Source: Phoronis australis
Lineage: Eukaryota > Animalia > Phoronida
Assembly (NCBI GenBank): GCA_002633005.1
Contig: NMRA01000006.1
Coordinates: 390,677-454,676, forward strand
Direction: 5' to 3'
Length of the DNA stretch: 64,000 nucleotides
The notes under the pieces were generated by a model, which saw only the letters and a program-made list of their open reading frames with translations, was not told the origin of the DNA and made no database searches. The position numbers and the translations under genes are program-made. Positions 9,401 to 64,000 of the stretch are shown here, piece after piece. Position 1 is the first letter of the stretch. Each line of letters starts with the position of its first letter.

Positions 9401-9969
9401 TCGATAGCATCAAGTATGCATCTTTCTTCGTAAGCAGTCACGTCAGCAATGTGTTCCAGTCCTTGGACTGCAAGTATACAGTCTGCTTTCTCTTTACATT
9501 TTGCCTGCAGTTGTATGACGCCAACCTTGTTGGCACTTTCACTGTTTTCGTTGAAGTCGTTCTTCTGATTCAGTGTGTTTTGGTTATCTACAGTAATAGC
9601 AGTAGAAAGAAGACATGGTTTGAGCTTTGTTTCTGACGTTATGCTTGTGGTTGCCGCTGTTGTAGTTTCCTTATGCACGTGTGGTGTTTCTGGGATGTCG
9701 TCGAGAATGTCTTCAATATATTCATAGTGAACAGTTATGGTCTGTCCGTTTTCATCTACTTTAGTCAAAGTGATACTTGAATCTTCGTATTCCTCACTTA
9801 AGTCATCATCTTCAGAAACTCCCAGCATGACGGAAATTATTGCTGTTGTGATGTCCAAGAGATTCTCTGTGATTGGTACTATATGTCGCTTGATAATATT
9901 CACAAACGCTGATATATACGCCATTAGAAAGACCATCAAGTCTGTAAATACCCTCATGGGTACTGCCAT
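6452..9969 (-). CDS. Uncharacterised repeat protein (~1170 aa if a 1-nt frameshift at ~9169-9173 is corrected): duplicated N-terminal module, 11-aa G(N/D)GDPGHDTxY repeats, C-terminal WWRRLLCC
   Basis: ORF 9969-8827 leaves the repeat frame at TAT GAA AAA GTG. Adding one base gives a stop-free repeat frame (SDHGSD...NGDPEHNTS...NGEPVKNTTRG) that runs straight into the 792-aa ORF 8830-6452. Confidence 0.7.
6820..8036 (-). repeat. 33-bp coding tandem repeat array (with 66-bp higher-order units), array 2
   Basis: Recurrent ggatcaccatttccatacggagtatcatgccct-like units on the + strand; they encode GDPGHDTPYGN on the - strand. Confidence 0.9.
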
Positions 9970-9988
9970 ATTAAAATATGAATTCTGA
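8037..9988. repeat. Internal direct duplication of a ~550-bp module (8037-8594 and ~9437-9988)
   Basis: Long identical stretches, e.g. gtggtgtttctgggatgtcgtcgagaatg...ggaaattattgctgttgt, at about 8281-8448 and 9681-9848. Confidence 0.95.
8595..9220 (-). repeat. 33-bp coding tandem repeat array 1
   Basis: Same unit; near-perfect copies ctggatcaccatctccatacagggtatcatgtc at 8600-8700, more degenerate toward 9220. Confidence 0.85.
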
Positions 9989-10620
9989 CGTCATCAAAAC
10001 GTTGACGTCACACACGCAATACGCATTAATGAATGCGAGAGTGTGAAGCCATTTTTGCGACAATGGCGAAACTTTATACTAACAGACGTAATTTTCAAAG
10101 TATCGACACTTTTCGTTTTAGGCGCTGTGTTTGGAAAAATAAAGTGTCTGCGCTTTTGACTACATGTAAACAGCAAAATATATAAGATAATGTTAAATGA
10201 TGCATTCCGTTTCATGGCTATACAAAAGCCTACACATTCTTAGGAAATTCACTCGTTTTGCTGTCATTTGCGTACCCTTAGGCAAAGATTGTGCAAACCT
10301 AAGTTCAATTCTGATCTATATCGTTATCAACATAAACACAGAAAATAATTAAAGCAAATAAACTCAAGCTGAATTTCATATGCTCTTGCTGTGTGCGGTA
10401 AACTTGGCAATTATTTTCTTAGTTTTTACACTAGATATCCTGAATGGTTGCTAAATTATAAGACCACGCGCGTGAACTCCAAGCTCATACACAGTCCCCA
10501 GCTTCAAGCACTGCTCTTCCGTCCCACCAGGTGTCGCTGAACTACAGCGACAGATGGCACTGCGCACAACCACAACAACGAAAAGGATGATTGAACTGTG
10601 AAGTTGTCTTTAATAATAAG
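9986..10620. promoter_or_regulatory. Head-to-head promoter region for the repeat gene and the PARP gene; two CRE palindromes; probable PARP 5' UTR exon ending at 10620
   Basis: TGACGTCA at 9986-9993 and 10003-10010; CpG-richer patch at about 10465-10570; strong donor AAG|GTATGT at 10620/10621 upstream of the acceptor at 12683. Confidence 0.5.
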
Positions 10621-34100: not shown

Positions 34101-35224
34101 TTGACCGTGAAGTACAAAAACAACTTGACCACCTCACGATCGGTCAGTAGGCCCATCTGAGCTGGACCCACTGCGAACTCTTCCACACTCATAAGAGGAA
34201 AACGAATGAGATAGAGGGCACTACCAAGAACTTGTCGGCGGTTGTCCGGAGTGTCGGTCAGTCCCTGTCGATCGCACTCAGCCGACGCCCAATCGGTGAC
34301 CGATGCGAAGAGTCTGGATTCACGAATGCCCAATGTATCACGTTCAAGAACCACAGACAGCGTGTCCAGATCGATGTCAATAAATCCCTCTGCAGCTAAT
34401 GCCTCCGATGTGTTTTTATCAATGGTTTCCAGGCAAAGCTGAGCTAATTGATCTTCGTCAAATAAACGAGCTTGTGTCAGTAACATGAATGCATTCTCAC
34501 TGTTCAAATTGTTCTTGAGGAAATCAACGCAAGCTTTCTCCAAGGCAGGAATGGCGTATTTCTTGGCTGCGTATAGTGTGGTCATCACCGTCTCCGGCTC
34601 TATACTCAGCTCATCAGAGTAGACAAATTGTAAGAGATTCTTGAACGCTGCCGGCTCCACATCGGGTAACTCGACGTCGTCATTCGCCGTTGCCATGGCA
34701 CCGTTAAACATGGCGTCGAACACAGCGCTACTAATGGACAAGACAAACTTGTGTGCTGCAATACGCTCCACATTTGGCTCCTTGCCAACAATGAAATACA
34801 CATCACTCATCGTTTCGTATTTGTAAATAAACATGAGCCGCTCTTTTACCGTTGCCTTACAAGCCTGCCAGTTGTACTGAACATTGCCCTGCGGACTGTT
34901 ATGAGGGGGAGGTGCAGCTGCCGCTTCTATGTCATCACTGTGACCATGAAGAGCACTACCGTTGTTCGTAGCCAATACAAAGCCATTTCTAATGGCGCCT
35001 ATTGGTGCAGAGCTTGTCCAGCTACCTCTGATCTCGCTGCTTGTCGCGGGACTTGGCATCTGATTTGAGGGTGACACGAGCAACGATTGTGTTTCTGTAG
35101 GCTCCACGGTACCGATAGTGCTGGACTGTGAGGTCTCATTTGAACCTTGAGAACCACTCCTGCTTATGCTATGACCTCCAGAGACACCATTGGCCGTCGT
35201 TTGGAACGAGTCTCCACTGGCCAT
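31153..35224 (-). CDS. BTBD2: BTB/POZ domain-containing protein 1/2 (BTB-BACK-PHR, Cullin-3 adaptor; 547 aa). Exons 35224-33975, 32967-32880, 32150-32004, 31311-31153
   Basis: [94 protein letters not shown] and [20 protein letters not shown]. Canonical GT-AG introns with consistent phases. BTBD1/BTBD2 co-ortholog. Confidence 0.95.
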
Positions 35225-35434
35225 GTTAATGGCTGAAAACAAATGATCAACAAAAATTAAATTAAATTTCAAAGATGTTGTACTAAACTATATGTTCTGG
35301 GGTCAAAAAAAGAACTCTCTCTACAGGCTTATTTACAAATCTAAAGTAATGTTGTCCCTTTTTCATTCTTTGTTTTCATAAATTGAAATTAGTTACAATA
35401 AAGCGCCTGGAACACCTCACAAAAACATAATGAC

Positions 35435-45400: not shown

Positions 45401-48400
45401 CATTTGTCAAAAATTAGACAGATTTGGTAAATATGTTGTCGATATCAGTGTTCTGCTATCAACGAAAGTACCTTTCTTGCTACATTTTAATAAAAAGACA
45501 TATTCACGTGACCCAATTACTGTCAAAAAATCAAATTCTATCAGCTATAACATTCAGAAAATACATACTTTTACAGGATTAAAATCTAGATAGTTTTACG
45601 GTTATATGGCTAATGAAGCAGTCTTGCTGATATGGTCCTACATAACTTAAAAGGAATGAATAGTTAAAGATGAGGAGGATAAATAGGATAGTTTTAAATA
45701 ATTTAGTAGGCTTATGATCAATTTAGGAAGCAACTTCTGCCTTCGAAGGATAGCCAAGCACTCAAAGGTAATTTGACACCCCATCCAGATGTGTGTCATC
45801 ATTTCACTGGTGTTTCTTCCGTCAGAGTGACATATTGCCCATTCAGTGAGTCTTGATGATTTGTCTTACATTTTATGTATTTTTACATTCAATGGCCCAT
45901 GTCTAATCATTCTGTATGTTGATTATTTCACTTCAAAGAGTGGTTGCCGTTGACAACCGTGGCTTCAATGAAACTGAAGAGCCAACTGGTGTGGACGCAT
46001 ACTCCATTGACAAGATGAGAGAAGACACCAAGCAACTCATTGACGCTTTAGGTAAGATGTTACAGGGCTTGATGCTTAGCGTAGCGTTAACTCGCCAAAT
46101 GCAACCTGGTAAATTTCCCAGGTTGCCTAAGAGGAAATGAGCTTGCCCAAACAAGGATACCCCATATGGGGGGAGGGGGGTGTGCAGGTGAATCATGGTT
46201 GGTAACTGTCTAAAATTGAAGATTGGGGCATCTGAATTGAAAAGCCGATGCAACTGGACTAATGTCTGCCGTAATACCCTGAAACTCTTGTGTGGTGTGG
46301 TTTTTTAGCAGAACAGGGAGTTAGATGTCTATCGTCTCCTCAAGTGACAACCAAACAACTCCCCTTTACTCCCAATATACCACCTCCTATCTAGTATTGA
46401 TGCAGACCATTGGAACACGTCTCTGCATGCATCATATTAGGCCAGAGTAGGAGATGGCAATTTCAAAACTTGTATGGATATTCTTAAATTTAAGCGAGGA
46501 TTTATGTTATACACTTGTGGTTAATTTTAGGCCAAAGTAGGATATAGCGATTTTAGAGCTTGGACAGATATTCTTAAATTTAAGCGGCGTTTATGTTACT
46601 TACATTTGTGCATTAAAGTCATATTTTACTGAAATTGTTAAAATATACCTTGCTACATGCAGTTGTTTCATAATTTTTCAAAATGTGCCTATAAAATTGT
46701 GACTTTGGACCAAAAGAGAAAAGTTTAAATTTTCAGGAGAACTGGTTGTATGCAAGAGTGCAAAATTGAAAAACCACCATAGTTCATTATGTCATTAAAA
46801 AATAATTGCAGGCGTTGTACCATACATGCACAGGTCGCGCATGTGGGCCCATTGCACTGATCACCTGGAACCATTTTTATGCTTTATTAATATATGGTTA
46901 AAACCGAGCTGAGGAGCTAGAAACCTGACTCGAGGGTTTAGCAGTGTGATCTAGTGGGACTTGAACCCATGACCTCGAGTAAAGAATGCGGGCATCTATC
47001 ACACTAGGCCACACTGCCTCCCCTCATTATGTCATTGCTACGTTAGATGGCTTGAAGTAAACTTTCTCTTTCCAGGTTACAAGGAGTGCATCCTAGTGGG
47101 CCATGACTGGGGTGGCGCTCTCGCGTGGGACTTTGCTGCAAACCACCCAGAATATGTCAGTAAACTGATTGTTATGAACGGCCCTAATGAGGCGATGAAG
47201 GTCTTCTTGAGAAAAAACTTGAAGCAGTTCTTAATGTCTTGGTTAGTACTCACGACACCCCCATGTTGGTGTGAATTCTTACTAGATTTATGACAAAAGG
47301 TCACTAGTTTGATATTAGTCTGATCATCATTAACAGAAAACCCTTTTTGATCATTTATCATGGCCAGGACTTGGAATTACTAAGGACAAAAAAGAGGAAC
47401 ATTTTCCCAGTGAAGTATCATTCCACAAAAATAGGCTTATGTGGTAGATTTATTTTTTGTTGTAAAATTTTACTGAAATTAACTTTTTGCACAAATAAAG
47501 TCAAAATAATGATAAAATGAGACGAAAAAAAGAGAAAATTTGAAAGCAAAAAAGGGAAAATCAACACCAAAAAAGACGAAATCCTCCAAAAAGAGGAAAA
47601 TTTCAAGCCCTGCATGGCTTAGTAATAAGAATTCATTTAATTTATCATGATTGGCAACAAACCTTGCATGAAAAATAGTAGATTTCAAGACAGTCAATGA
47701 AATCCTTTAAATCCAAAAATCTTGGTGCAAAATGTTTTTATTTGTGAAATTTAGCATTGTTTTTGAAATCTACAAGGCACTCAGCTGACATGCTTTAACT
47801 GTGACAATCTGAAGCCACTTCTTTGAACTTTTGAAACTGACAAAAAGATGATTTTGGCAATATTACTTTTGTCTGAAGGTGAATCAGCTTTATTGGAACT
47901 CTGTGTTTCTTTTCACAGGTACATGTTTTTCTTCCAAATTCCTTTGATTCCTGAGTGGATGTTCTACAGGGCAGACATGGAGTTTATTATGACCCGAGCC
48001 TTCACTCCGCTGGTGAAGAAAGAGCTCATGACTGCTGATGATTTGGAGGGTTTGAAATTCGCCTTTAGAAATTCAGGTATTGCAAAATCTCTGCAATAGG
48101 GCCATCCAGGGTTACACAGCGAGACTCGAATATCGTTGTGTTTACCCACAATGCTGCAATCAAGCACTTTTGTGTAGCCTCGTGTTCTCAGCTTTTCTCA
48201 GCTGTATTACTCTATTCGTTCTTTCGATGCCAACAAAGTATTACTGCTGTACTGTGAGCTGCAACTCTGACGGGAGAAAGTTGGATAAACTTGACAAATA
48301 TTCGTGGTTGCGTGATGCTTAGTTCGGTTTCCGACATGACCTGTGAATATATGCGTGACATTAAACAAGGCCGATGAAAACAAGCTTTCTCACCTTTAGG

Positions 48401-49763
48401 ACAAAAGAGAGTTCTATCTCTCTGTAATCTGGGATGGCCCTATACAGCATGACAATGTCTCATTTCATTCATGGAATAATGTACAGTATGTCACGCCAAC
48501 ATGGCTCAGGATACGGCAGAGCACAGAGTCAAAATCGTTGTATGTGATTTTGCATTCTGTTTGGCCAATTGAACGCTAGGACTATTTAACTTTGAGGTGA
48601 ATCTGTATAGCGAATAATACAATTAGGTAAAACAAAAATTCAAACTGACATTTATCTAGTCTTAGCTAGATGAATTAAACGCCTACAGCTGAACTTAGGT
48701 ACAAAAAGTGTACTCCATAATTTGCTAAACCACCTTTCTGCTATGGCTATACTCCATAGTAAAGATTGTGTAAACAAAATCTAGCCTGTTGAATACACAG
48801 CATGAGTTGGTCCCTTTTGTTAATGTTCTCTGACACAACACAAAGCATATTATATGGTTATAAGGTTGTGAACAAGAGCATTAGTCTTGTGTTATGGTCT
48901 GGGTTATTCAAGATCACAGGATGAGAAGAGTAACTAGGACACTATATTCCTGAGAAAAATACACTGGGTTAATTTCTGCCTATGTAACCTCCTGTGAGGT
49001 TCATTTTTTGTCAAAAACGCATGATAGGGTGAAGCTTTGCAGTTTCATCTCTGCGAACGTGCATTAATTATTCTAGTTTGATGTTGACAGTTTTGACTTG
49101 ACCTATAATAATTATTATAATGAGGCAGTGGTGTCGGAATTTTGCGAAATAACGTACGTAAAACAGAAAGGCCAACACATTACTTAGGCGTTCTACTGCC
49201 CCATTGCAACAGACACTGTCCTTTAATATCACTGCACATACTCAGCAAGCCTTCCAGGCAGCTTGAGGAATTTTGCTCTATTTAAATGTTTTTGTTAGCT
49301 AAGGCAATTTTTACTGAAACTGCTTTACTTCCAAAGCATTCTTTTCTAATGCTTTGCTAAGTGAGACACTGATCGACATGGTGTTCCGATGTTTCATCTT
49401 CCATGACTTGTCCTATAGCTATTGCTGTATTGGCTTCAAGCATTTACCTCTTCTTCAGTTACTGGCCCCATAAACTACTACCGTGCGGCATTCCGACGGA
49501 AGCCACCCACGAAGGCGGGATTTAAACACCGCTACACGACCCCTACGCTACTCCTGTGGTCCGAGAAGGATGAAGCTTTGTCCACCGAACTGGGCCGCAT
49601 GGTGGCAGCCAAGGCAGACCAGTGCACATTTTACATCGTGCCAAAAGCGAATCACTTTATTCAACAGGAGTGCCCCCAGGTGGTGAATAAGGCGATCAGG
49701 GAATGGCTAGATACTGGAAAGTTGAGTTCTACCTCTGGAGTATCTGTGAAGTCTTCTCTGTGA
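42439..49763 (+). CDS. EPHX4: Epoxide hydrolase 3/4-like alpha/beta hydrolase (353 aa). Exons 42439-42633, 43704-43828, 45939-46051, 47076-47241, 47919-48076, 49459-49763
   Basis: N-terminal hydrophobic anchor, [35 protein letters not shown], nucleophile motif GHDWGG, lid tyrosines SWYMFFFQ and PINYYR, acid WSEKD and catalytic ANHFIQQE. All phases are consistent. Confidence 0.93.
42658..43060. mobile_element. MITE with long TIRs in EPHX intron 1; related fragment at ~36697-36762
   Basis: Left cgtgaacttggaatcctg...ggaagtgagtgttgcgtgaacttggaat versus right attccaagttcaggcaacactcacttccaggattccagttcacg. Confidence 0.7.
44450..44860 (-). mobile_element. Dispersed repeat (inverted copy of 12090-12450)
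   Basis: Reverse-complement similarity to the 12090-12450 copy. Confidence 0.75.
45224..45283. repeat. 30-bp tandem duplication
   Basis: tctggaatgttccactgttgtatagggggc x2. Confidence 0.9.
46438..46610. repeat. ~90-bp diverged tandem duplication
   Basis: taggcca(g/a)agtagga...gatattcttaaatttaagcg...tttatgtta x2. Confidence 0.8.
46810..47020 (-). mobile_element. tRNA-derived SINE
   Basis: - strand gaggcagtgTGGCCTAGTG...GGTTCAAGTCC (Pol III A and B boxes); body and tail shared with 56065-56309. Confidence 0.75.
48098..48441 (+). mobile_element. Non-autonomous ISL2EU/Harbinger-like element with THAP remnant
   Basis: AT|agggccatcc...ggatggccct|AT with ~25-30-bp imperfect TIRs; internal [16 protein letters not shown] at 48227-48322. 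Confidence 0.65.
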
Positions 49764-50124
49764 TTTTTAGGCACGTGATTTTCATCCTTTGGGATGCCTA
49801 AAAGCAAAACCAATGCCTATGATGCAAAAATCATATTTTTTCTGCTAATTCGTTTCATTTGTGTTAATCAATATTAGTGGTTATACCACTAGTTGACACG
49901 TTCACTTGACTCTTATTGTTTTGTTCTGTGGCTTCTTGATGATGTATTACAAAGTTTTTCCACCATTAACTTTTTGGATAGATTGAATTATTTATATGCT
50001 CATGAAAAGAGGTCAATGATTCAAACATTAACAATGTAATATTTTGTGCTTAGTTGCAAATCATTGTTTCTTAAGTGTCAGAGCTGTATTTTACCCTGTT
50101 TAGCCTGTTAAAAATGAACTCTGC

Positions 50125-50357
50125 AATTTGGGACAGTCTCTAGAATTTCAGACACAGAAACACCTAGAAATTGAACTTTCTTCATTCTAGAATTTGGGAC
50201 ACTGGCAACTGAGGGCCGAGGGGTGTTCATCATGTTTCTCAAATTTCGGACTACTTCATTGTACAGTTTGCAATCTACACAGTGGGTAATTTTTCCATCT
50301 TTCTGATAATTGAATTTGGGAGTGCCAATATTGTCTATTTCTAGAATTTGGGACAAG
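50125..50357. repeat. Degenerate tctagaatttgggaca repeat cluster downstream of the EPHX stop codon
   Basis: At least 5 copies of (tctag)aatttgggac or close variants. Confidence 0.65.
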
Positions 50358-51397
50358 CTCTGACCTTGAGCAAAATAATCAATTTTTCACTGTACCAATT
50401 GGAAAATTCTTACCATTGACCTTTTACTCTTATAAAGTCCATCTCAAAAGTTTCCTCACCATGATAACTAGGACTTGTTCACTATTAATACAAACACACA
50501 AACCTTCAATAGGTCAAAGAAGCATCGAAAAATTACTGATTTTATGGGGTAGTGGCCAACTCTTTGAAAATGGTGCATGATGAATTCTAAGTCACCCCAC
50601 ACAACTGCGACTATTTCCTTGATTGCAATAAACTGATGACCCCAGTTGACCTAGTTACTGAATGGTAACGTTTTGTTCATGTATATTTTACCAGGAAGTG
50701 AGTGACAGCAATTCCCTTGACTAGGTATTTTGTTGGCCTGATTTGTATGCATTGACTGAGACCAACTGACTACCGTTTCATTCAATGCCAACTTGGGTAC
50801 ATTACTATTCTTCACTTGGCAAAATTTTCTTTTCTGTTTGTCAAAAGCTGATTACTTTAATACAAATAATAGAAACTTTGCTGAATGTTGTTTTATAACG
50901 TCTACTAGGGCTTCAATCCAAGCAAGCAATGGGTTGCAGTTTTCCTAATTTTGAAAATATTGATTTTGAAAACAAAAAAAATTCACTTGTCCATCAATGT
51001 GTGTGCTAAATAGATGAAGAACGGCATAGTAATGTTTTTAAGTGCAGATTGATTTGGTTAAGAACTTGAAATATGTTTGATAGCTAAACAGGACGAAATG
51101 CAGCTTTCTGTGATATCTTTTGGTTTTTATGTGGGTGATTTAGGCAATCCTTAGGAAACCGTATGTAAAGTGTTATTGTCAGATATAAATTTAATTTTTA
51201 ATAAAGTTCCATGATTCCTGCTGAGAACTAGGAATAATTGTGAAGGACAGCTGCTCCTTTGTGCTGTCTTAGTAAGACCGACTTTTTATCAGTCTGGATA
51301 AAGCGTTAAATGTCTGTACAATGTTGGTAGTAGTTCGTAAATCATCCCCCGCAGTAATATTGTGGAGTTGGTCAACCAAGAGCGTGGAAATGGCAGA

Positions 51398-51683
51398 CAG
51401 TGGCGGATTTAGCCCCCCTAAAATTCTTCCAGATTCCATTTGTCGTCAGTTGGGGGTGCGAATTTCTGACTAGCATATGTGCGCACCCAGGGGGGCTCAG
51501 GGGACGAATGCACAATGCATAGACCTTGAACAAACCTCATTTGTTTTTTATTTTTTAGTAATAAGGTCCACAAACCCAAAAATTCCGAGACCCATACATC
51601 TTAGGCTGGGCGCGCGCATGGGGCGAAATTCTTGTTATTCCTGTGCCCTGCCCCCCTACTCAAAATCCTGGATCCGACCCTGA
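51398..51683. mobile_element. hAT-like MITE (CAGTGGCGGAT TIR)
   Basis: cagtggcggattt ... ggatccgaccctg termini with C-rich subterminal tracts. Confidence 0.55.
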
Positions 51684-52901
51684 GAGGACGAGTTATAAGT
51701 TAAACGTATTGAATGTTTCCAGGCCCAAAACCTGTCTTGCATCATTTAGCACACACCAACGCAGAAAAATTAGTTGGAGGTTGGTTCGATAGTTCGAAGG
51801 GGCGAGAATATCAAATTTGAAATTGGCCTGATGGTTGTCGGTCTGAAGGGCCCATAATTGACCCGAAAGACCAACAGTCCGAAGGGCTGATATTCGGAAA
51901 AGTGACGACTCTTTGGCTGACATATTTATTTACCAGGCATTTCACGCCTTCGAATTTCTTGATTGGCGACTCTACGGCTTGAAGCAAGCGCAATACCAGT
52001 ATCTAATCTACATGTATGGCTTTATCCGACGTCGAGAATTTGTCCGATTCCTAACAATTTGAAAACTCATTGAACTAGTGTTCAGAAAAAGGTGGAAGGA
52101 ATCATAGTTTCTGGGAAAGAATTTTTTTAAGATGCCATTACTTCATAAGAAATTCAGTGACTGATAAGTTCCGAGTTTTATTTTTACCGTATATTTACGC
52201 CCGTGCACCTACATTCGAAGCTATACATGTACATGTAGGCCTGCGCTTGTATTTGGTATCAGAGGCATATCCCTTAACACTTTAACGTGAACTGAAACCG
52301 TCAGTGCTTGAAAGTGATGCTCTGACACAACCCATCATTAAAAAACGCGTTGCTATGCTTGCTGAGTGTAGTGAAGATTGTTTTCAATGGTTTAGACTCG
52401 CTCAGCACGCCTGGCGAACCGTACGTGTACATGTAGGTGCTTGTCCACTAGTTTACATCCAGATTGAGCACTGACGTTTGTTTTTCAGTTGGAAATTATA
52501 GGCGAGAATCGCTGGCATCGTCAATTCAGCACGCACTGATCTAAGAGCCCTTCGATGGCAATAACCGCAGTCCGGTTTATTCCGAAACCATGGTTTTACA
52601 GCACTCACAAAATACTGGCTGACTGAATAAATTGCAATATCCTTACAAGGAAACTAGTGATTCAGTGTTTACTGTTTGGCTTCTGAATTTGAATTCCCAT
52701 AGACATATACTATAGTCTGTGATTCCCCGTAAATGTTAGGTCAAGATCAGTTTCCCTCGAAGGACGATGATAATTATCCAAAAATATGTAATTGGATTCG
52801 GTTTTACAAATCAGTATTTCAATTGGGATGCACGTTTTCATTGTGGTAGATGATTGGTTTGTGAGCCGTTTTGCGGGACAAAAGACCGTGCGAACGCTTA
52901 A

Positions 52902-53010
52902 CAGTGTGGTTCAGTGGTTTGAGCTCCGTACTCCCGTTTGGGAGACCCAGGTTCGAATCCTGGCTTTACTGGCAGACAATCGAGCATTGCACAAGTGTCT
53001 CCTCCTCTGA
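52902..53010 (+). mobile_element. tRNA-derived SINE head
   Basis: A box TGGTTCAGTGG and B box GGTTCGAATCC at tRNA-like spacing; no convincing acceptor stem. Confidence 0.6.
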
Positions 53011-53248
53011 GCTCGGTCTTACTAGTGAATTTATGCGAAAGTGATTTTTGGAGCTGTGCTCATATTAGAAAAAACAATAATAGATTTTCTCACGTGACCT
53101 GGAATGTGTTACGACACTGGTTAATAACACCGAGTACGTAATCTTTGATATTACATGGGCGAATCACAAAGTAGTGCGAAGTAGAAATCCATGCGCCTTA
53201 CATTTTATCGTCTGCAAAACACTAAAACCAATCAGATAAATATATACC

Positions 53249-53351
<103 letters not shown>

Positions 53352-54206
53352 CTCGTTGACTATAACAACCAAACGCATGCCAACCAAACAATGCTGGAAT
53401 TCCGAGAAGGTGACAAGGTTATGATTGACAAATCCGGTGTCGCAACTGTACGTACTCCTTGATGGAAGGACATGCAAACAACTTCTTAAACAGACCCATC
53501 TTCGGCAGCGAATTCCATATCCACATTCATTCAAACTGATCGAGACGAACCCCACTCAAGAAACGCGGCGAGACTGTCGAGCTGTGCTGTCTCAAGGTCA
53601 ATTCAGTGCTCACGCGCGGGTAAGCGTTGCTGACTGTTATTTATAAAAAAATAAATTTTAATATGACAACTTCAAAGATAATTTATTAGATTCTAACTTG
53701 AATATTTGTTACGAAAGCGGTATGCCATTTACATTTGTTAAGCTTAAAAACACCTTCTCATCTGAAATGACCTTTTCTCAAATATATGAGCTTCGAAAAA
53801 GGGACTTAAATAATAATTAATAATTAAGGTATTGCCCAGACAATACCACACTTGTAAAAACTATTAACAAAGAGTAACTGAATTACTTTACATTGCGCAA
53901 GCGTGTTTTTACAACAGTTGCGTCGTGGCTGAAAGTTTTAGACACGTCGAGTTTTTCGGCAAAGAAAACGTCGTTTTTACGGTTCATGTGAGAAAACAAA
54001 TCCTACACTCCTCTCATTTTTATGACATGGGCATAACCTCTTGGAAATTTCGTCAAAATGCCGAGGGATTTTGGCGAAATTTCCCAGAGCCTTTGTCCAT
54101 GTCATAAACCTGAGACGACTGTAGGATTCTCTAGAAATTGATGCACAGATTTGGAAATCTGACTGTCGCTTGGAGTTGAAACTAAACGACAAATATTTGT
54201 AATGTG

Positions 54207-57200
54207 CTATTTATTCCCATTTTGCAAGCCATACTGTTTTGGGGGCACCTTTATTTTGAACAGCAACATTTCACGGGAAAGTTTGCACTCTTCGTCGCCA
54301 TGGAAATCATTTTCGTAATCCACGCTCGTCTGCGGCGCCCGCACAACAATTAGGTCACGTGATTCGGCGCTGTTGCTGATTGGTGTACAGTCTCTGTGTT
54401 CGTCCCGTGAGCTGTCGGGTGATTCTTCGCTACTGCTCTCTTTAATAAATCTGGCATTCATTGCGGCAACAACGGTGGTCGCGTTAAGAAGACGCCAAGA
54501 AACATCCGGGACTTTTCTTCTCATCTCTTGATGACTGAAACGGACGCATTTAACAAAGCGGTCACAGAGAACTTTTTGAGAAATGGAAGTAGAAATGGCG
54601 GTGAGAATAATCCCAAGAAGAATTCTATTGACGTGGTAACTAGGGTTGTTAAAAGTTAGAATGCCAGGGTGCGCTATGAGCTTTGCATCTCATCTTGTCT
54701 TATAATCGGCAAGAATTGAATCCGTCACGCATCTGTGTATTTAATGAGACTCGTGGAACACAGCTGACTTTTTGCCTACAAAAATGCCATTTCAGTGGGA
54801 AAAAGCACTGAAGACGTGTGTTATAATCATATATACTGAAACGACGAATTAACAGTTACAGACTATTTCGTGCTGTTATTGCAGCCATCGGAGACATCCG
54901 AGTTGTCACTGAGCTGTTTTCTATAGAAGTGTAGGCAGGGAGACCAATTGCCGTGGCCCAGGCGACGAGCCTCTCAGCGCCCTGACTGGCGCTGTTTCAT
55001 GTAGTACCCGAATATGCAACATTTCCGAACGACTTACGTTGTTTTTGAGCAGTCGTACGCTCCGTGGAGAATGATCTTTAGCATTTCGTTGACCATGTTA
55101 CCACTTTGGAAGCTTTTCGTGACGATTTCTTTCTCGAGTTGATGCATGGCCTACGAAGACAGTCACGTGATTGACCATTTCATTAGTTACGAAAGTGGCG
55201 TGTGTATAAAGAGCGATTTAAGTTTTGTATTCAGAACAAAACAACGTCGTTATATTTTATAAAACTGGAACTGTCAAAGCCCTCGAACGTTGAAGCTGAG
55301 AAAAATAACTTTTAGGGTTATCGACCCTGTATTCGCCAAAAATATACAAAAGTCTAGGTTTTAGTTCAGTTGAAGTGTTTCTGAAATTGGAAAGCCGGTA
55401 GAATTTGATTTTTGTCTTTTTACCAACTGCTATTAAATGGGTCACGCGACCATTTCTTTTCGATAATATTTGGCGAAAAAGAATTACAGTATAAATAACA
55501 CGGTCAAATTTCACTTGATATAAATTTCTATGCAAAATCTCAAAAAACCCTGTTACAGCTTTTAAATCATTGTTACAGCTTTAGTTTTTTCACGAAAATC
55601 ATAAAAAGTCAACTTTAAGTTGATAGCCCCTCATATATAACAGGAGCATTTCAGTATCAATTCCTAACAGTGGTTTGAAGCACAATGCACAAAGCATGGC
55701 CTCTGAACGTTTTCATATGAATGCAGCTGAATCAGCCATTTGTGAGATATGACGTTCCGGATTTTAGACATTTTCTAGGGTCTTGCACAACCTTAGTTTA
55801 GACCACTTGAGTCAGGAGGAACCGACATATCGTTATTGCTCGAGACCGGCTCGATACTTTGCCTTGGCCGGCGGGCACCTTTATGCACGGATCACAACTT
55901 AATGAGCAGTGCCAAACACGGTTACTTCGAAAACCACTTCTAAGGTAATGCAGTTGAAGCCAGCTTTCATCGAAGCGTTTTTTGGTCTAAATCAAAAGTT
56001 GTTTGGTACTGATTGCGGACTCATTTTGAGAGCAGCAATACATATAACTAAGGCGGTCTAGTACACGTTGTAGCACTCACGTGCGCAGGTTGCTCTGGAG
56101 GGCCCATTGCTGTCATCACCTGAAACCATTTTTATGGTTTATTAATATATAATTGTAACTATATATTTATGAAATAAAAAAATTGTTAAAAACAGCTGAG
56201 AAGACAGTGACCTGGCTCAAGGGTCTAGCAGTGTGCCCCAGTAGGACTCGAATATAGGACTTTGAATAAACGAAGCGAACACTTATCCCACTAGGCCACA
56301 CTGCCTCCTCAAAACAGAATTAACACAAGACAGGAAACGTACTGTCGTAGGGACGGAGGAAGGAGAGAGTGTTTTTACTTCGTCAGTATTTTTCGTTGAC
56401 ATCAAGCCGACCAAGGGAACGGGATGCGAATAACGGTGAAGGAATTCTCTGAGTACGCGTCCTCAATGATGTATGGTAGAAATGCATTTTATCAAGTGCT
56501 AGACAACTAAATGCCCACCTACCAAAGTTAAGAAATCCTTTTTTTTCTCATTCAGCTTTTGACACGTGATAACGTCCTTCAACGAAGACTTCCGTTTCAC
56601 CTGTCCAGTGTCACCACCCATCAGAAGCGCTTCCGTGTCACTCCCACTAAAATCTTCGGTCGTTCCTTCGTCACTTTCCGCTGGTTTCATATCATTATTG
56701 GTAATGGTAATTTCACACATTTGCTTTCCCTGTTAGACGTACGCAAGTTAAAAGAAATCAGTACAAATTTACCCATGGCTATTGTTCATCTGCCGACTCG
56801 AAAGATGAATTGCTCCATCAAAGTAGATTATGTTTTTAACAACCTAAGTCACCTCAGCGCTGTTTGTAGGGACAGAAAATGTATGCCGTTTAAAACGTCT
56901 CCTGTTTTCCCACCGAGTGGCGTTTGATTGCGTGGATATACAGAAGTCATATTACGCTTACGTGCGGTATTTTGCAATTTCAGAAATCTACTTATTGTAT
57001 GGTGCAGAAACGCATTCCACATTTTTATCCCATGCGCGTTGACTCTGTCGAGGGAAATACGGCCATGTAATAAAGTTTTCCGTATTCACTTCCCGCACAA
57101 CTTCAACAGCGAACTCTGACATGGAAAGTTTAAAAGGTAGGTCAATGTCGACTCGACGTCTTCAGCCGGTTCGATCATCAAACTTTCCGAATATAGTTTA

Positions 57201-60200
57201 AAGTAATACAGTTGCAGCAGTGTAACTAACACTCGACATGCAACCAGACCCTAAAAGTAAAATCTGGAACAAAACTGTTGATTATAAGACACTTATGTCT
57301 CAGTTTTCAATTACTGAATACCATATCGGATCATTTCGTTTGCAACTCAGGCGCCGATTCCTAGGAAATTAAAATATCAATTGTTGTTTTTTAACTATTT
57401 CCAAGAGATGTTACAAGTTCACTGCACAGTTACCGTTGTTCTCATCTTTGCTACCTCTTTTCAAGAAATAAATCGTTACTTTTAAAACTGTTTATTTTAC
57501 AAGAGAAAACTTGCAAGCTAACGCGCAAGTACATACATATTGGATGCGATCCGACATATGAACAGTCTGGGTGACGTATTTGAAAAATCTGCCGAAAAAA
57601 TGTAAGAAACCTAGATGTTCGAAGCGCTTGGGATAAATACAAAACGTACCTCGATTGGCGTACATGACCGAGTATCCCACTCGACCTTATTCCGCGTATC
57701 GACCGAGACCGAAGAAGCGCTCGTTCGACATTCATCAAAGGGAGAAACAGGTTAAAATATCAAGAATTGGGATGATCAGTCGAGAAATTCTTTATGTTAC
57801 AAGCGTACCTGATTCGTAATTCGTTTAATTGTTTTCGTCACATCGTTTCCTGATTCTCCACCATTTTCCAACATTCGCCCAGTTTGCAATCGTCTTGAAT
57901 CCAGAATGCATTTTGTACAGGGGCACAAATTTGGACACTTGCAAAATCAGTCGGACACTTACGAATATTTATTAGTTCGTGACAATTCGTGGGAAAAGCT
58001 TTCGACATTTAACTGCTTACATCGTTACTTGTGCAGTGGCAGTCGCTTCTGTAATTAGCAATCATCATAACCTTCCGTTTGAAGTTCGCTTTATTCTCAG
58101 ACGTCATGCAGAGATCCCCTGCTTCTCGAACATCTCTTTTTGTGCGGTGACCTCTGTTGGCAATCCTCATAACTCTTCGTTTGAGGTTGGATTTGCTCAT
58201 GGTATTGCAGAAGTCCTCAATTTCCTGAACTACGCCGTCACAATCGGACGGGTCACCGCTGGAATCCAAGGTGGTGCGTAGCTTATCCCGGCATTCTGCT
58301 TCTCGCTGACAGCAATCTGCTATCACAGCAATTGCTGCTGCTACGTTGACGTCTGTACCTTGAAGAATATAGTAATCACGCTGGGAATATCCTCGATACA
58401 AATCTAATAACCGTGTTTCCCCACATTTTTTTTGTTCACAATACAAAATATGCCTTTGAGCACGAAGCCCGCTTACATAGCTGTACCTGGCGTTTTGTTT
58501 TAAGCATATTTATCTGCACGATAAACACACAAGCCTGGATTTCAGCGAATTTAACTGGCAGCCAACAGCGAGAATTGGCCAAGAACGTTACGTGAAGAAG
58601 TGTACCCCATCCAAGGAAAATCACAAAATGCGTTTTTCTGGCGATTATGCTCCTTTTAATCAGTTTGAGAAACGTAATAATTACATTCTCTCCTGATCTT
58701 TTTGCCATTTTCAAAACCCAGTCATTAAAACATAGACAGTGAGAATATAGTCCTTTGCCATTTGTACTTGCTGATTAAAGAATTTTTCGCGACACTAATT
58801 AAATGAGAACCGTTAACTGTAACTTAAAACGATTTCTTTCTTTAGCGTTGCACGTATTGGATACTAGTGCATCAATTTCAACATACCTTATAGGATCTAG
58901 TAGGTTATCCTACGAGACCCTATTTGACTTCGATACAGTACAGGTGATGTCGTTGCCAACAACATTTTTAATGCTCAGTATTGTCTTTTGTTACCTTTCC
59001 ATCACGTTCTAATCGCCGTAAAGGCGCGAAAACTGGGTGACCCTTACTCTCAACAACAGGTGGCGCCGTTTGTCTTTTTTGGATGAATGTATTACCAGTA
59101 AAGTAAAATGTATATTTTGACGGAGCAAGGTATGATTAAGATTAGTACACCGATAAAAATATATCTCTCTACAGATATGTTGTTTTGAGATAATTCAAGC
59201 TATCTTTTGTTCGACCAGTTCAGCCTGAGCTAAACAGAGTCGCTTTAAAAAGCGGTTCCCAACGTTTAGCTGACTGACACGAAAATCAAATTAGAGCTGT
59301 CACTCTCGTAAAATTGGTCTCGTAATAGTCGTTACCGCAGTTAGATTCCATTTCCGTTACCAACTCGAGTCAAAGACCATGCTAACACGCGCCATTTTCG
59401 AATTCGCAATTCAGGGTCGGGTCAACCGCAACAATAAAATCTGAATTGTTTTCTTGAGTCACGGTGGCTTGAGTGTTCCTGTTCATTTGGTAACGGAAGG
59501 AACATCACCAGACCGACTTTTTGTGAGAGTAATTTATATTAACATAATTTATGTTAACCAGCTAAACCCGTCGAAATGCAGCTTTAACTGAGAAGTCGAT
59601 CATTTTACACATCCAATCACAGTCATAAGCGTTACTCAAGGCTAACAAAGAGATGTTCTTGGATTGGCTGCCGTTTCACGGGGTAGAAACCGTAGATCAG
59701 CAAGTTTACTTAATTTATTTATTGTTTCCAAGTATGCCTTTTCTAGTGAGCATCTTGTACAAGTTCTTATGGGATTCAACATAACTATAATATGTGGCGT
59801 CCCTTAAGAATTCTTATCTTTTGTCACGTAGGTAATCCAACAGTCCCCTATTAGAATTCTTATAAAAATGCATTAGGATTTTATAAGATTCTACGAGACG
59901 TCTTACCTGAAATCCAACACGATCCTGTAGGATTTCTATTACATCATACGTTGGGCGAATGTTTAACAAGCATTTCCATTGGAACCCACCGGAAATTCCA
60001 TACGAAATTTAAAAAGAATTCTAACTGGGTACGGTCTTTATTTAAATTTTACAAGTTAAGAGCACTGAATGATTTGAAGACTTTGGAATATGCGATGTTT
60101 TTACAAATTATTTTACTTAAAATTCTTTAACAAGGTACTCGCACTAGCGGCCGTCCCTTGTCAAAGAATCTCTTTGACAAGGGACTCCCAATGCGAGTAT

Positions 60201-62756
60201 CCACGATTGATTCTTGGCGAAAACACCTGTACATGTACACTGGATGTTTAAAGATCGTAAACACCTGCTTCCCCTAAATCGCTTCCAGTACCACGGGATT
60301 AGCAAAATATAGTCAAGTTTTAACCTCAAATGTCAACGTACATCCTGCTCGTTAACGCTGAGATGTGCCTCGAGTTCGTTTTGTGTAATAACTTGGTAGC
60401 AGTTGATTACTTAAGTAATCGACCTTCCAACAAAAGAGAAATGTTTGACTTGATTTTAAAATATTAGCAGCCACGCACCTGAGATTCTTTGCCTCAACTT
60501 GTTGACTTTATTTACGTGTCGTTTCAGCAGAGTGGCGTACTGTTCTTCGATTTCTGCCCGCTCCTTGGCGATGAGCTGTATAATCTTGAGGTCTCTTAGC
60601 AAAATTTGAAAGTATCAGAGTCGCACTGTAGCGACAGTGAGAGAGCAGCGAGGTCATTTCCAGATGGAAATGCACCATGTACAGCAAAACTGTAGACTTT
60701 TAAGGTGCCTCCGAAGTAGCATTGCCACCAAAAGCGGTGATCTTTTTAAGAATACAACATCTGTTTTTTCATGAAATGGTTCAGCTCGTTTTTATAAATT
60801 TAGAAAACACTCACATTTTAGTTGAAAATAATCGTTTTAAACACTATGTTTTGTGAAACGTGAGTGAAGTTCGCGCGTGACGACATCCGGCTTAAAAACT
60901 AATCAGGGTCTTTTTTCATGAATAGTGACTACAGTCAGAAATTTGTTCTTGCGCTCCACGAAACTATTTTTGAAAAGTAATTCCATCTCACTTGAGTATG
61001 AACGCAAAGTCGCTGAGAATATACACATAACTGATAGTTACTGAGATAATATTCATAAATGAATTCGAGACTGTGACGCGCTCATAATTACTTGGCCAAA
61101 CCTCTTTCAGTAACTGTTAATTGGGAAAGTAAGACCGAATTTCTGTCTTATGTCTCGGGTCACTTTCATGAAACAGACGCCAGATGTCGCCGAAGCGAAT
61201 CAAGTGCAACCAATGACGTATATACGTGAGTGACCTCGTATCTTAAAGGGACATCATCGCTTTTACGACTGAAAAAAAAACGCAGTCGCTTGATATTGTT
61301 GGATGGGATAGACTTTGTGAAATTATTGGTTTTGACTAGAGCTCCAAAAAATAAAATCGGTTTGTTTTTGCGACTTTATTACAAAGTGCCAATTCTGACG
61401 CCGGTGTCTGCCAGCCATTCGCTGAAATCAAGGCCGGTGACTTTACCAGTTAGATACGCTTAACATTTATCTCAGCCAGCATGGTGTTTAACCGCCACCA
61501 TGAGGGTTCTACGTTCGTTTCCGTGCTTTAGCTGACTTCAGAAAGAACTTTTTCTCGCCGATAATGTCACTTTAAGAGAATGCCGCGTGCCTAAATCACG
61601 CCGCGTATGATCTATTGCTTCAACGAAGTGTCAACTTGATCCAGATTCTGTGTAAAACGTATGGTTCAATTTATATATCGATTGAAATTTCTACACACCT
61701 CTGATGATAGGAAATATCTCTAAATTGTATCCACAATTCTTCAACCTCTTTATCCCCGCTCATGACAACTCGACCTGAAGCGTAAAGTATATGACAGCAA
61801 AGACACCAGGTTTTGTGTATCGCTCAACGCCTGTGTAGCAAAAATTTTCGTGTCTAAACTCTTCTCGATTCAAAAACTGTTCCTCGTTGTAGGCAATGAC
61901 GTCTATCGATTATGATGTCACTATTTTACAGAGTTTTTATGTAAATAAGTTTCAAAACCTCAAACTTGCATTATGTATTTAGTTTTAAATTCATGACACG
62001 TGCCTGAATGTGATGTTTTCAACTATGCTTTAGTTTTGTTAAGTAGAAAATAAATCAGAAACCAAATGAGGTGATCCAGATTCTTTGGAGGATATTACTG
62101 TTGGACGAAACGTAGAATGCAGCAGAAAGGAAACAGCAATAATGGAACAACTGAAATTTTCGGATATAATCACATCCTTTCTCAAGAGACACAGAGATAA
62201 AGCAAAATCAAGCACATTTGTAGGTCTACGTGTAGTTTCCACATTATGCTATGATTCCGGAATTGCTGTTGACCATTATTGGGGTTCTTGCTAGAAACGA
62301 TGAGTCTTTTTTCAAATTAGGCTTCTCAATTTGAGGAGAGTGCTTGTGTTCCGCCTTGGCAGGCTCGTCGGAAAAAAACCGTTACTGGCATTCGGGTCAC
62401 TACAAAATTTTCTCCCATTCTTTTGGTTTATGCCCATTTCATCAATCGGTGAAAAGCCCTTCAGTTTGACAGGCCATCGGAGATGTGAGCAGGTCCGATG
62501 GTATTGAACTACCCGCGGGACAAAATTGAACTGAGATTAGCGGTTTCAAACGTGCAACATGAACTCGAGGTTTAAATTTAATATTTTCACATTGCATGGA
62601 TGTATAGTCAATATCGTCGGGATACCTATCGTCGTCAGGCTCCAATGGTCGTTCGCCATCTTCTTTCGCGTGCAGCACAGCCACGCGGGACTTAGCGTTC
62701 CAATCTGGAGTGCTCGTCTGCACGTTAGGTACTGACCTCTCGGGAGAAACACGCAT
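54207..62756 (-). CDS. Putative 453-aa FCH-only (partial F-BAR) protein. Exons 62756-62626, 60594-60516, 58513-58477, 58358-58021, 57937-57809, 56729-56523, 55150-55038, 54534-54207
   Basis: Eight GT-AG exons join with consistent phases (2,0,1,0,0,0,2) into one 1362-nt ORF containing KERAEIEEQYATLL and NVAAAIAVIADCCQREAECRDKLRTTL at F-BAR spacing. Three acceptors are AAG and two exons are short, so individual boundaries are uncertain. Confidence 0.55.
55260..55790 (-). mobile_element. Dispersed repeat family (other copies ~4440-4790 and ~45290-45620)
   Basis: Shared tatcaa(g/a)tgaaatttga(c/t)c.tgttatt, cgtgaccca and ccctaga(g/a)aa segments. Confidence 0.5.
56065..56309 (-). mobile_element. 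tRNA-derived SINE (same family as 46810-47020)
   Basis: gaggcagtgtggcctagtgg...ttcgagtcc...cacactgctagaccct...ataaaaatggtttcaggtgat...gcaatgggccc. Confidence 0.75.
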
Positions 62757-63670
62757 GGAGGAACTGATACGAAAATCGGTGCATTTACCGACTATTTAAA
62801 AACTTAAAAACTTATAGATTTTATTAATGCACTTTTTTGTTCATTTTCAGAAGATATTTTCGAATTAAATTTTCTTCAGACGGAACAAAAAACAACCCAG
62901 GGATTGTTTGTGCAATATATCTATTTGTTCCAGGCACTAACCGACACTTGTTAGGCCAAAGGAAAAACGCAGCAAGCAAATGCAACACGCTGGGTGCTTA
63001 AAGGAGAATGCCACCCAAAAAACAACCTATTTTGTATCAATTTAGATCGAGTAGTTCTACTCGAAAACGGCACGTTCGGTTGCGCTACCTGACACCTGAC
63101 GGCAGACGGAGGTGTTGAAATTATCCAATGACGTAATTGGTTTCACACGCAGTCTGTTCAGCAGTTCAAAACACGGGTTAGTGGTGTCGGCTTATTGCTT
63201 GTACTGATCGTTTAACACCAATAAATCATCAAACTTCGATGGAAAACCCTTAAAAATACACCGAGTTCTTATAAAAACGTGTTGTTTTATTTCGCTGTTA
63301 CGCATTTACTGGTATTTGGACACACAAAGTTCGGCAGGCGAATTACCAAGGCCCGTAGAGGCCGGGAGTTTGGGGTCTGTTCGGAGATAAATTCAGATAT
63401 TCTTCCGTGGAATACAGACAAGAGAACCTAGATCTGTATTGTTAATACTTGTGATTTTTTTAGTTCTAAACACACAAAACGCTTGTTATCCCGGTCAGTG
63501 GCTCGGACCCGGATGAGGCCCGTCGCGGCCGCAGGGACTGGCACGAACATAAACCAGCTTGAGTTAGAAACTAAACCTCCAGTCACGAAAAGACTATAAT
63601 AGTGAGCCGAAGGAATAATGTGTACGTAATTATTTATGTGAATTAGCCACGAAACTGAAAATCTACTTAC

Positions 63671-63715
63671 TTGTCGGGGGCCGCGAAGTCGGGTTCCACT
63701 TCCACTCACAGTAAG
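63671..63715 (-). other. Possible upstream (5' UTR) exon of the FCH-like gene
   Basis: Consensus donor CAA|GTAAGT at 63671/63670 on the - strand; candidate acceptor ttttcgtatcag just before ATG 62756. Confidence 0.3.
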
Positions 63716-64000
63716 GGCAAAGGTTGTACAGTAACAATGATTTGAATAATGTATTTGTATTTCTAAATAAAGATTCCCCTAACATGGGACCATATCATAT
63801 AAAATCGAGTAATTGTTTCACAACAGCTTTCTGTCAGCCAACACTGAATTAGATTGCGCTCGGTGCCCCAATTACCTTTGTTGCCGGCATCAAAAGCCGG
63901 TAAGGCAGTGGTTTATTCATTGCTGGCTTCTCAAAACATTTGCACTCACGAGCACTCCAAGACATTACAAATTGTATCTAATGAGACAGACTTTGTTTCA

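What the first reader, a model, noticed from the sequence alone, without database searches (positions are those of the whole stretch)
54207..62756. Cryptic 8-exon gene encoding a half F-BAR (FCH-only) protein with an unrelated C-terminus
Seen: eight short - strand segments splice with matching phases into a 453-aa ORF: ...DWNAKSRVAVLHAKEDGERPL...DLKIIQLIAKERAEIEEQYATLLKRH|INMLKTKRQVQLC|TDVNVAAAIAVIADCCQREAECRDKLRTTL. Established: F-BAR proteins (PACSIN, PSTPIP, FCHO) have W...DG.R....ERA.IE..YA..L, followed about 20 residues later by the T.+.A.......E.....H..+...L helix. Spacing matches here, but Ile replaces the usual Trp and Arg replaces His. Inference: similarity stops after about 110 aa, with no long distal helices and no SH3, RhoGAP or muHD domain. 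This would be an unusual truncated F-BAR architecture, possibly a non-canonical membrane binder or a modulator of F-BAR dimers.
Basis: partly seen in the sequence, partly recalled or inferred. Interest (0 to 1): 0.75.

Follow-up and report, generated by a model that had tools for sequence, protein, structure and literature searches.

The report
Orphan gene keeping one F-BAR helix
This is a real, spliced animal gene, active in two of three RNA samples, whose 401-residue protein keeps the first helix of the membrane-bending F-BAR domain but matches nothing known beyond it, so it is likely a fast-evolving offshoot that would dock on membranes without bending them.

Summary
Stranded RNA reads from two runs (30-62 reads per junction) give seven coding exons and a 401-aa protein starting at ATG 61763. 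A third run has no reads on the gene, although it covers the neighbouring transcript.

Exon 2 matches Pfam FCH (E=1.6e-5; 25.6 bits, cut-off 27.8) at the expected N-terminal place. 25 of 30 ESM-Atlas hits are FCH clusters, and 0 of 60 control pieces hit FCH. Against this, no solved F-BAR sequence was hit. Nothing after residue 60 matches a known family, and no homologue was found. The rest holds a 34-residue internal duplication, an acidic spacer and a likely disordered tail.

Best reading: a lineage-restricted, eroded F-BAR duplicate that has likely lost membrane tubulation. A full-length eroded F-BAR cannot be excluded, because the spliced chain was not folded or profile-scanned as one piece. 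A broken second copy gives about a quarter of the exon-2 junction reads. This is a new variant of a known kind, of modest interest.

The parts
61699..61763 (-). Coding part of exon 1 (ATG 61763, aa 1-22). The 5' UTR runs up to roughly 61900-62000; the start site was not mapped.
   Evidence: Junction 61699>60594 with 35/38 reads and depth 72.5/52.4. In-frame stop upstream; no ATG in 61950-61764.
60479..60594 (-). Exon 2 (aa 22-60): FCH helix 1 with K32-E33-R34 and the IE..YA..L motif; net charge +6 over aa 41-60
   Evidence: Pfam PF00611 E=1.6e-5, aa 27-56 = model positions 19-48 of 78; Atlas 25 of 30 hits FCH, score 0.92; donor 60479 used by 39/34 reads; charge.
58021..58358 (-). Exon 3 (aa 61-173): likely start of F-BAR helix 2 (inferred), then short helices
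   Evidence: Junctions. Single-sequence AF2 gives six short helices at pLDDT 55.6. No family or homologue.
58056..58202 (-). In-frame internal duplication, period 102 nt (34 aa), about aa 113-128 and 147-162; the first copy carries a basic cluster (K120-R122)
   Evidence: 32 of 45 nt identical; 0 of 300 codon shuffles reached this (maximum 28).
56523..56729 (-). Exon 4 (aa 174-242): acidic, Gly-rich spacer followed by a basic helix-like stretch
   Evidence: Junctions 43/30 and 52/54; composition; no Pfam family.
56081..56119 (-). Exon 5 (aa 243-255), 39 nt, Pro-rich
   Evidence: Junctions 52/54 and 62/62; too short to scan.
55038..55150 (-). Exon 6 (aa 256-293), Pro-free and helix-like
   Evidence: Junctions 62/62 and 62/42; no Pfam, NCBIfam or PDB hit.
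54207..54534 (-). Exon 7 (aa 293-401) with stop 54209-54207; one predicted helix, otherwise likely disordered. AATAAA at 54215-54210 overlaps the last two codons.
   Evidence: depth 35.7/28.8; AF2 pLDDT 40.7.
58775..60521 (-). 1747-nt stretch missing from a second transcribed copy (allele or paralogue); removes the last 43 nt and the donor of exon 2
   Evidence: Non-canonical joint 58774/60522 with 14/10 reads at 13/10 starts; flanking intron covered at 11-17x and the skipped part at about 1x.
61092..61518 (-). 427-nt stretch missing from intron-1-retaining reads; its loss creates a new GT donor that is spliced to 58358
   Evidence: Joint 61091/61519 with 6/9 reads; joint 58358/61519 with 3 reads in X2; junction context.
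62004..63000 (+). Divergent spliced transcript (intron 62220-62933) with the same sample pattern; longest Met-started ORF up to 64000 is 36 aa. Likely shares a bidirectional promoter.
   Evidence: Joint 62219/62934, GT..AG, 13/10/0 reads; ORFs.
62626..62756 (-).
   Evidence: No junction listed, minus-strand depth 0-0.4; no Pfam hit.
58477..58513 (-).
   Evidence: No junction listed; the main form skips it, 39/34 reads.

Best explanation
This is a transcribed, seven-exon, 401-codon gene that likely arose as a lineage-restricted, fast-evolving duplicate of an F-BAR gene; it keeps FCH helix 1 and is predicted to dock on anionic membranes through that basic helix without tubulating them. Shown: the exon structure, open frame, sample-restricted transcription, FCH similarity of aa 27-56, K32/R34, the internal duplication and the lack of recognisable accessory domains. 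Inferred: origin by duplication; aa 62-94 as the start of helix 2; loss of the helix 2-helix 3 arm, replaced by the duplicated short helices and the acidic spacer; and hence no crescent dimer. It would act as a helical scaffold with a disordered tail in one specialised cell type. Germ line is my guess for that cell type; the tissues are not known.
For: FCH hit at E=1.6e-5, in a register that puts model position 1 at about residue 9 of an ORF defined independently by RNA. Control 0 of 60. Atlas: 25 of 30 hits FCH, 196 of 256 features shared, recognition 2401. After aa 94 the longest Pro/Gly-free run is 32 aa, and aa 181-215 are acidic and Gly-rich. FBP17 needs aa 1-300 to tubulate and 1-250 fails; K33/R35 and K51/K52 are needed for lipid binding (PMC2063556 passages). 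The protein has K32/R34 and N50/K51 at the same spacing (the mapping is inferred). No homologue for exon 3 among 1.84 billion representatives. No fixed differences in 519 coding nt of exons 1-3, against 8 in 1093 nt of retained intron (p=0.045).
Against: The FCH score is below Pfam's cut-off (25.6 < 27.8). Exon 2 hit no solved F-BAR sequence at E<=10; the best hit was DRC2 at E=0.37. Exon 1 and the start of exon 3 gave no FCH hit alone, and exon 3 had no usable Atlas hit. No parent gene could be located (no genome). The AF2 models are single-sequence and low-confidence. Membrane binding, translation and tissue are all unmeasured. A broken copy supplies about a quarter of exon-2 junction reads.
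Confidence: 0.45

Rival explanations
1. It is a full-length but heavily eroded F-BAR. Residues about 243-330 supply the returning third helix and the short fourth helix, the six-helix dimer core is kept, and only the arms have degenerated. It would dimerise and bind flat membrane.
For: The span from aa 9 to about aa 300 equals the 288-aa FBP17 F-BAR (PMC5435084 section 6). Aa 254-301 are Pro-free and aa 303-331 Pro/Gly-free, with moderate heptad signal. The core uses only parts of helices 1-3.
Against: No Pfam, NCBIfam or PDB sequence hit for exons 4, 6 or 7 to any BAR-clan entry. A Pro-rich exon 5 and an acidic spacer interrupt the path.
Confidence: 0.22
2. It is an SRGAP2C-like dominant-negative modulator that pairs through helix 1 with the parent F-BAR protein and caps or poisons its lattice in the cells that express it.
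For: Precedent: SRGAP2C heterodimerises with and inactivates SRGAP2A (PMC5435084 passages). Helix 1 makes homotypic dimer contacts and is the only recognisably conserved part here.
Against: SRGAP2C keeps the whole F-BAR (aa 1-355) with only five substitutions. This protein is too diverged to hit any F-BAR sequence, and helix 3, which is part of the interface, is not recognisable.
Confidence: 0.12
3. It is a dispensable duplicate under relaxed selection, drifting toward a pseudogene; the FCH helix is a remnant without current function.
For: A second copy lacks the exon-2 donor and carries a +5 change at the exon-1 donor; it gives 14 of 53 and 10 of 44 exon-2 exit reads. No reads in X3, and none of the 8 listed X4 pieces lies on the gene; this could be gene absence in those animals rather than tissue specificity. 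No homologues.
Against: The frame is open across 7 exons in the reference, and all six junctions keep it in RNA. Depth is 36-47x per Gb read. Exons vary less than introns (p=0.045, weak). In exon 7, 1 of the 2 fixed differences listed is silent.
Confidence: 0.16
4. The FCH likeness is chance convergence of a charged helix in a de novo or unrelated coiled-coil gene.
For: The match is 30 residues long and below the cut-off; the best PDB hit is an unrelated coiled coil; shuffled sequences reach Atlas 0.9 in 4-10 of 100 cases.
Against: Two different methods agree on FCH, the position and register are N-terminal, and 0 of 60 controls hit FCH.
Confidence: 0.05

Closest known systems
FCH / F-BAR (EFC) domain, Pfam PF00611; CIP4 subfamily (FBP17, CIP4, Toca-1)
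   Same: N-terminal FCH helix 1 with K.R and IE..YA..L. The basic residues are spaced like FBP17 K33/R35 and K52 (PMC2063556 passages; mapping inferred). Exon 1 has an ELW motif and exon 5 a PPEQ motif that I recall from CIP4-family N-termini and the HR1 region; this is recall only and no call tested it.
   Different: No recognisable helix 2-3 arm, HR1 or SH3. It has an internal 34-aa duplication, an acidic spacer and a likely disordered tail. No sequence hit to solved F-BARs.
Human SRGAP2C (truncated F-BAR paralogue)
   Same: Lineage-specific, lacks accessory domains, and is a candidate modulator of a parent F-BAR protein.
   Different: SRGAP2C is nearly identical to its parent and keeps the whole F-BAR, losing only part of the Fx extension. 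This protein keeps about 30-60 recognisable residues, and its parent is unidentified.
PSTPIP2 (F-BAR without SH3)
   Same: No SH3 or other C-terminal domain (PMC4437251 passages).
   Different: PSTPIP2 has a complete F-BAR and tubulates membranes. 'FCH only' (FCHO) is also a complete F-BAR plus muHD, so that name does not describe this protein.

Membership tests
F-BAR/EFC domain proteins | N-terminal FCH helix 1 similarity | tested here: met
   PF00611 E=1.6e-5 for aa 27-56; Atlas 25 of 30 hits FCH; control 0 of 60.
F-BAR/EFC domain proteins | Complete FCH above Pfam's cut-off, including the start of helix 2 | tested here: inconclusive
   25.6-26.0 bits against 27.8 on the exon-2 piece. Exon 1 and the first 35 aa of exon 3 gave no hit alone. 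The spliced chain was not scanned as one piece.
F-BAR/EFC domain proteins | About 290-aa domain of three long helices with a helix 2-3 arm | tested here: inconclusive
   Sequence argues against it: longest Pro/Gly-free run after aa 94 is 32 aa, with an acidic Gly-rich spacer. The exon-3 model has short helices but pLDDT is only 55.6. No full-chain model.
F-BAR/EFC domain proteins | Antiparallel dimer with a six-helix core | not testable with these tools
   Needs a model of the spliced chain, or biochemistry.
F-BAR/EFC domain proteins | Basic lipid-binding pairs (FBP17 K33/R35, K51/K52, R113/K114) | tested here: inconclusive
   K32/R34 are present and N50/K51 keep one of two. The third pair cannot be mapped; K120-R122 is a candidate. 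The paper's alignment figure was not seen.
F-BAR/EFC domain proteins | Binds PS/PI(4,5)P2 and tubulates membranes | not testable with these tools
   Experiment needed.
CIP4, PACSIN, PSTPIP1, FCHSD, srGAP, NOSTRIN, FCHO, FES/FER subfamilies | C-terminal SH3, RhoGAP, muHD or SH2-kinase domain | tested here: not met
   No such Pfam family in exons 3, 4, 6 or 7 at E<=1. The stop at 54209 is in the RNA-supported last exon. Exon 5 (13 aa) was not scanned.
CIP4 subfamily | HR1 domain after the F-BAR | tested here: inconclusive
   Exon 6 gave no hit. Exon 5 is too short to scan, and its PPEQ likeness is recalled only.
SRGAP2C-type truncated paralogue | Near-identical, complete F-BAR shared with a parent gene in the same genome | tested here: inconclusive
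   No genome is held and there is no paralogue in the window. The lack of any F-BAR sequence hit argues against near identity to a conventional parent.

The most novel reading that the evidence does not exclude
Probability: 0.12. Interest if true: 0.62.

Novelty: new variant of a known kind. Interest (0 to 1): 0.3.

Why it matters
In the work I read, FCH functions only as part of the roughly 300-residue F-BAR unit (PMC2063556, PMC5487894 passages). A natural, expressed protein that keeps helix 1 while the rest erodes would show what that helix can do alone: membrane docking, dimer interference or a new partner. At present it is one orphan gene with no orthologue, no parent and no function, and degenerate lineage-specific duplicates are common (own knowledge). 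The practical result is a corrected gene model.

Tried and rejected
The run finder listed no indexed RNA holder; the raw-read runs came by species label.

Homologue searches, all blank:
- Word-index protein searches with exon 3, exon 2 and exon 7 against longer proteins: 0 of 190, 0 of 12 and 0 of 53 candidates scored. This is weak evidence; exons 1, 4, 5 and 6 were not searched there.
- phmmer of exon 3 against 1.84 billion representatives gave one hit, P0001, a CARD-ankyrin protein scored by summed repeats; rejected. Its cluster look-up could not be made.
- Metagenome scans: exon 3 gave 0 of 79 stretches. The exon-2 frame gave 2 of 590 stretches, which match mainly through the intron flank and contain a stop; rejected. 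That scan covered 54 of 64 parts.
- An FCH motif scan of viral contigs, run to obtain reference F-BARs, gave 7 matches. The two in long open frames look like phage proteins by eye and were not scanned further. So no F-BAR reference set or subfamily tree could be built.
- PDB sequence searches with exons 1, 2, 3, 4, 6 and 7 gave no F-BAR.

Structure: fold searches with the exon-3 model were uninformative (Foldseek best E=1.0; VIA-align best Z 5.5); this neither shows nor excludes a BAR fold. A complex prediction with the exon-2, exon-3 and exon-6 pieces, two copies each, returned 'no answer' (score 0.04, mark 0.34) and is not used.

Other: Rfam gave only a sub-threshold hairpin match at 54021-54106. 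Earlier scan notes had nothing near this place or like exon 3; the 8 BAR notes shown of 251 were 7 archaeal proteins and one bacterial ATPase.

Literature: I found no report of such a protein (swamped by an unrelated term). The listing was mostly SRGAP2C-related papers, and I did not check the 'partial F-BAR' wording in PMC2921345. The library lacks most subscription papers, and no supplements were read.
Full report
Setting. The window is intron-rich animal DNA of about 39% GC, and no whole genome is held. Neighbours are a glycerol-3-phosphate dehydrogenase-like gene, a BTB-BACK gene and an alpha/beta hydrolase (Pfam). Earlier unreviewed notes on this genome call it a likely mollusc; I did not test that.

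Gene model. Four runs with the same species label were offered. I laid all four on 50000-64000 and the three raw-read runs on 57900-63000; about 18-19% of each raw run was read. Runs X1 and X2 give six GT-AG junctions on the minus strand: 61699>60594 (35/38 reads), 60479>58358 (39/35), 58021>56729 (43/30), 56523>56119 (52/54), 56081>55150 (62/62) and 55038>54534 (62/42). Spliced, these give an open frame of 401 aa from ATG 61763 to the stop at 54209-54207, with an in-frame stop upstream and no ATG in 61950-61764. One search hid 61 weaker joints, so minor extra exons between 58021 and 54534 are not excluded, but the direct junctions are well supported.

Expression. Exon 3 reaches 47 and 36x per Gb read in X1 and X2, and 0 in X3. 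X3 covers the neighbouring transcript at 50000-50933 at 62-74x, against 20-31x in X1 and X2, so the blank is specific to this gene. None of the 8 listed pieces of the older contig run X4 lies on it (278 were not shown). Tissue, sex, stage or absence of the gene in that animal could each explain this; the labels are coded, and the three raw runs come from one study.

The FCH match. Exon 2 alone matches Pfam FCH at E=1.6e-5, 25.6 bits against a cut-off of 27.8; residues 27-56 align to model positions 19-48 of 78. This puts model position 1 at about residue 9 of the RNA-defined protein, where FCH domains sit. Of 801 stop-free 38-aa window pieces, the 60 richest in coiled-coil residues gave 0 FCH hits at E<=0.05. 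The ESM Atlas gave 25 of 30 hits in FCH clusters (0.92; 196 of 256 features; recognition 2401); shuffled sequences reach 0.9 in 4-10 of 100 cases. Against this, exon 2 hit no solved F-BAR sequence at E<=10, and exon 1 and the first 35 residues of exon 3 gave no FCH hit alone. So helix 1 is shown, and the start of helix 2 is inferred from spacing and pattern only.

The rest of the protein. Exons 3, 4, 6 and 7 match no Pfam, NCBIfam or PDB entry convincingly. Exon 3 has no usable Atlas hit (recognition 1324) and no true homologue among 1.84 billion representatives (the single hit is an ankyrin-repeat artefact). Exon 3 holds an in-frame duplication of period 102 nt (32 of 45 nt identical; 0 of 300 shuffles). 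Residues 181-215 are acidic and Gly-rich, exon 5 is Pro-rich, and the longest Pro/Gly-free run after residue 94 is 32 aa. Single-sequence AlphaFold gives six short helices for exon 3 (pLDDT 55.6) and one helix in an otherwise unfolded exon 7 (pLDDT 40.7); both are weak evidence. The spliced chain was not folded or scanned as one piece, and no F-BAR reference proteins could be obtained. Subfamily and the status of residues 243-330 therefore stay open.

Mechanism. The FBP17 F-BAR has 288 residues. In the related SRGAP2A the dimer core is built from parts of helices 1, 2 and 3, with helices 1 and 3 making the homotypic contacts (PMC5435084, section 6 and passages). FBP17 1-300 tubulates membranes and 1-250 does not; K33/R35, K51/K52 and R113/K114 are needed for lipid binding and tubulation (PMC2063556 passages). 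This protein has K32/R34 and N50/K51 at the same spacing, and net charge +6 in both aa 41-60 and aa 121-140. The mapping is my inference; I did not see the paper's alignment figure or supplement. I conclude that tubulation is likely lost, and that the retained basic helix most likely docks a helical scaffold with a disordered tail on anionic membrane in a specialised cell type (0.45). Rivals are an eroded full-length F-BAR with its core intact (0.22), a dispensable drifting duplicate (0.16), an SRGAP2C-like inhibitor (0.12) and chance likeness (0.05).

A broken second copy. Both expressing runs carry non-canonical joints 58774/60522 (14/10 reads) and 61091/61519 (6/9), with the flanking introns covered at 8-20x and the skipped parts near 0-2x. 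The ends are not spliceosomal, and the 427-nt loss creates a GT donor that is itself spliced to 58358 (3 reads), so both losses are likely genomic. This copy lacks the exon-2 donor, and its reads carry a +5 change at the exon-1 donor (61694; 6 of 6 and 9 of 9). By the reference sequence, read-through of exon 1 stops after 30 residues; if intron 1 were spliced, 46 residues would run into a 112-codon intronic frame. Allele or paralogue cannot be told without DNA reads. Exons 1-3 show no fixed difference from the reference in 519 nt, against 8 in 1093 nt of retained intron (p=0.045; two partial-frequency intron rows and two 3-read exon rows were not counted). Exon 7 has one silent and one replacement difference among the rows shown. 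This is weak evidence of constraint.

What is known. The nine mammalian F-BAR subfamilies are defined by a complete F-BAR plus accessory domains; PSTPIP2 lacks the SH3 but keeps the F-BAR (PMC4437251 passages; PMC5487894 passages). SRGAP2C is the truncated precedent, but it keeps the entire F-BAR. The atypical Toxoplasma BAR proteins are modelled as complete six-helix dimers (bioRxiv 10.1101/2024.06.13.598837 passages). My searches (listings only) turned up no described protein of this build. CIP4-like ELW and PPEQ motifs in exons 1 and 5 are recalled likenesses and were not tested.

Verdict. It is FCH-derived but not shown to be an F-BAR family member: a new variant of a known kind, orphan and without function data. 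Interest 0.3.

Noticed in passing
window 62004-62219 and 62934 onward, + strand: Spliced divergent transcript without a long ORF, present in X1 and X2 and absent in X3 like the gene; likely a bidirectional-promoter non-coding RNA.
   Followed up: partly
   Followed up: partly
window 2052-4223, - strand: Divergent glycerol-3-phosphate dehydrogenase-like gene in two long coding blocks (Pfam N- and C-terminal domains). Its nucleotide-binding loop reads GGAAWG; that this departs from the usual GxGxxG is recalled, not tested.
   Followed up: no
window 6452-9990, - strand: Two overlapping long frames (387 and 906 codons) built on a 33-nt tandem repeat of about 35 copies encoding an acidic Gly/Asp/Pro/His-rich 11-residue unit, plus a duplicated non-repeat block; no convincing Pfam family. 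Possibly one frameshifted gene.
   Followed up: no
window 33824-35287, - strand: Long single exon of a BTB-BACK gene (BTBD1/2-like by recall); ordinary.
   Followed up: no
window 46973-49763, + strand, with RNA at 50000-51400: Alpha/beta hydrolase exons (epoxide-hydrolase-like by recall); the downstream plus-strand RNA is seen in all four runs and served as the expression control.
   Followed up: partly
window 53999-54128: Inverted repeat of 64-nt arms, 83% complementary, about 80 nt past the stop codon; likely a small transposon-type hairpin, with only a sub-threshold Rfam match.
   Followed up: partly
window 54215-54207, - strand: An AATAAA signal overlaps the last two codons, suggesting a very short 3' UTR; the RNA end was not mapped.
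   Followed up: no
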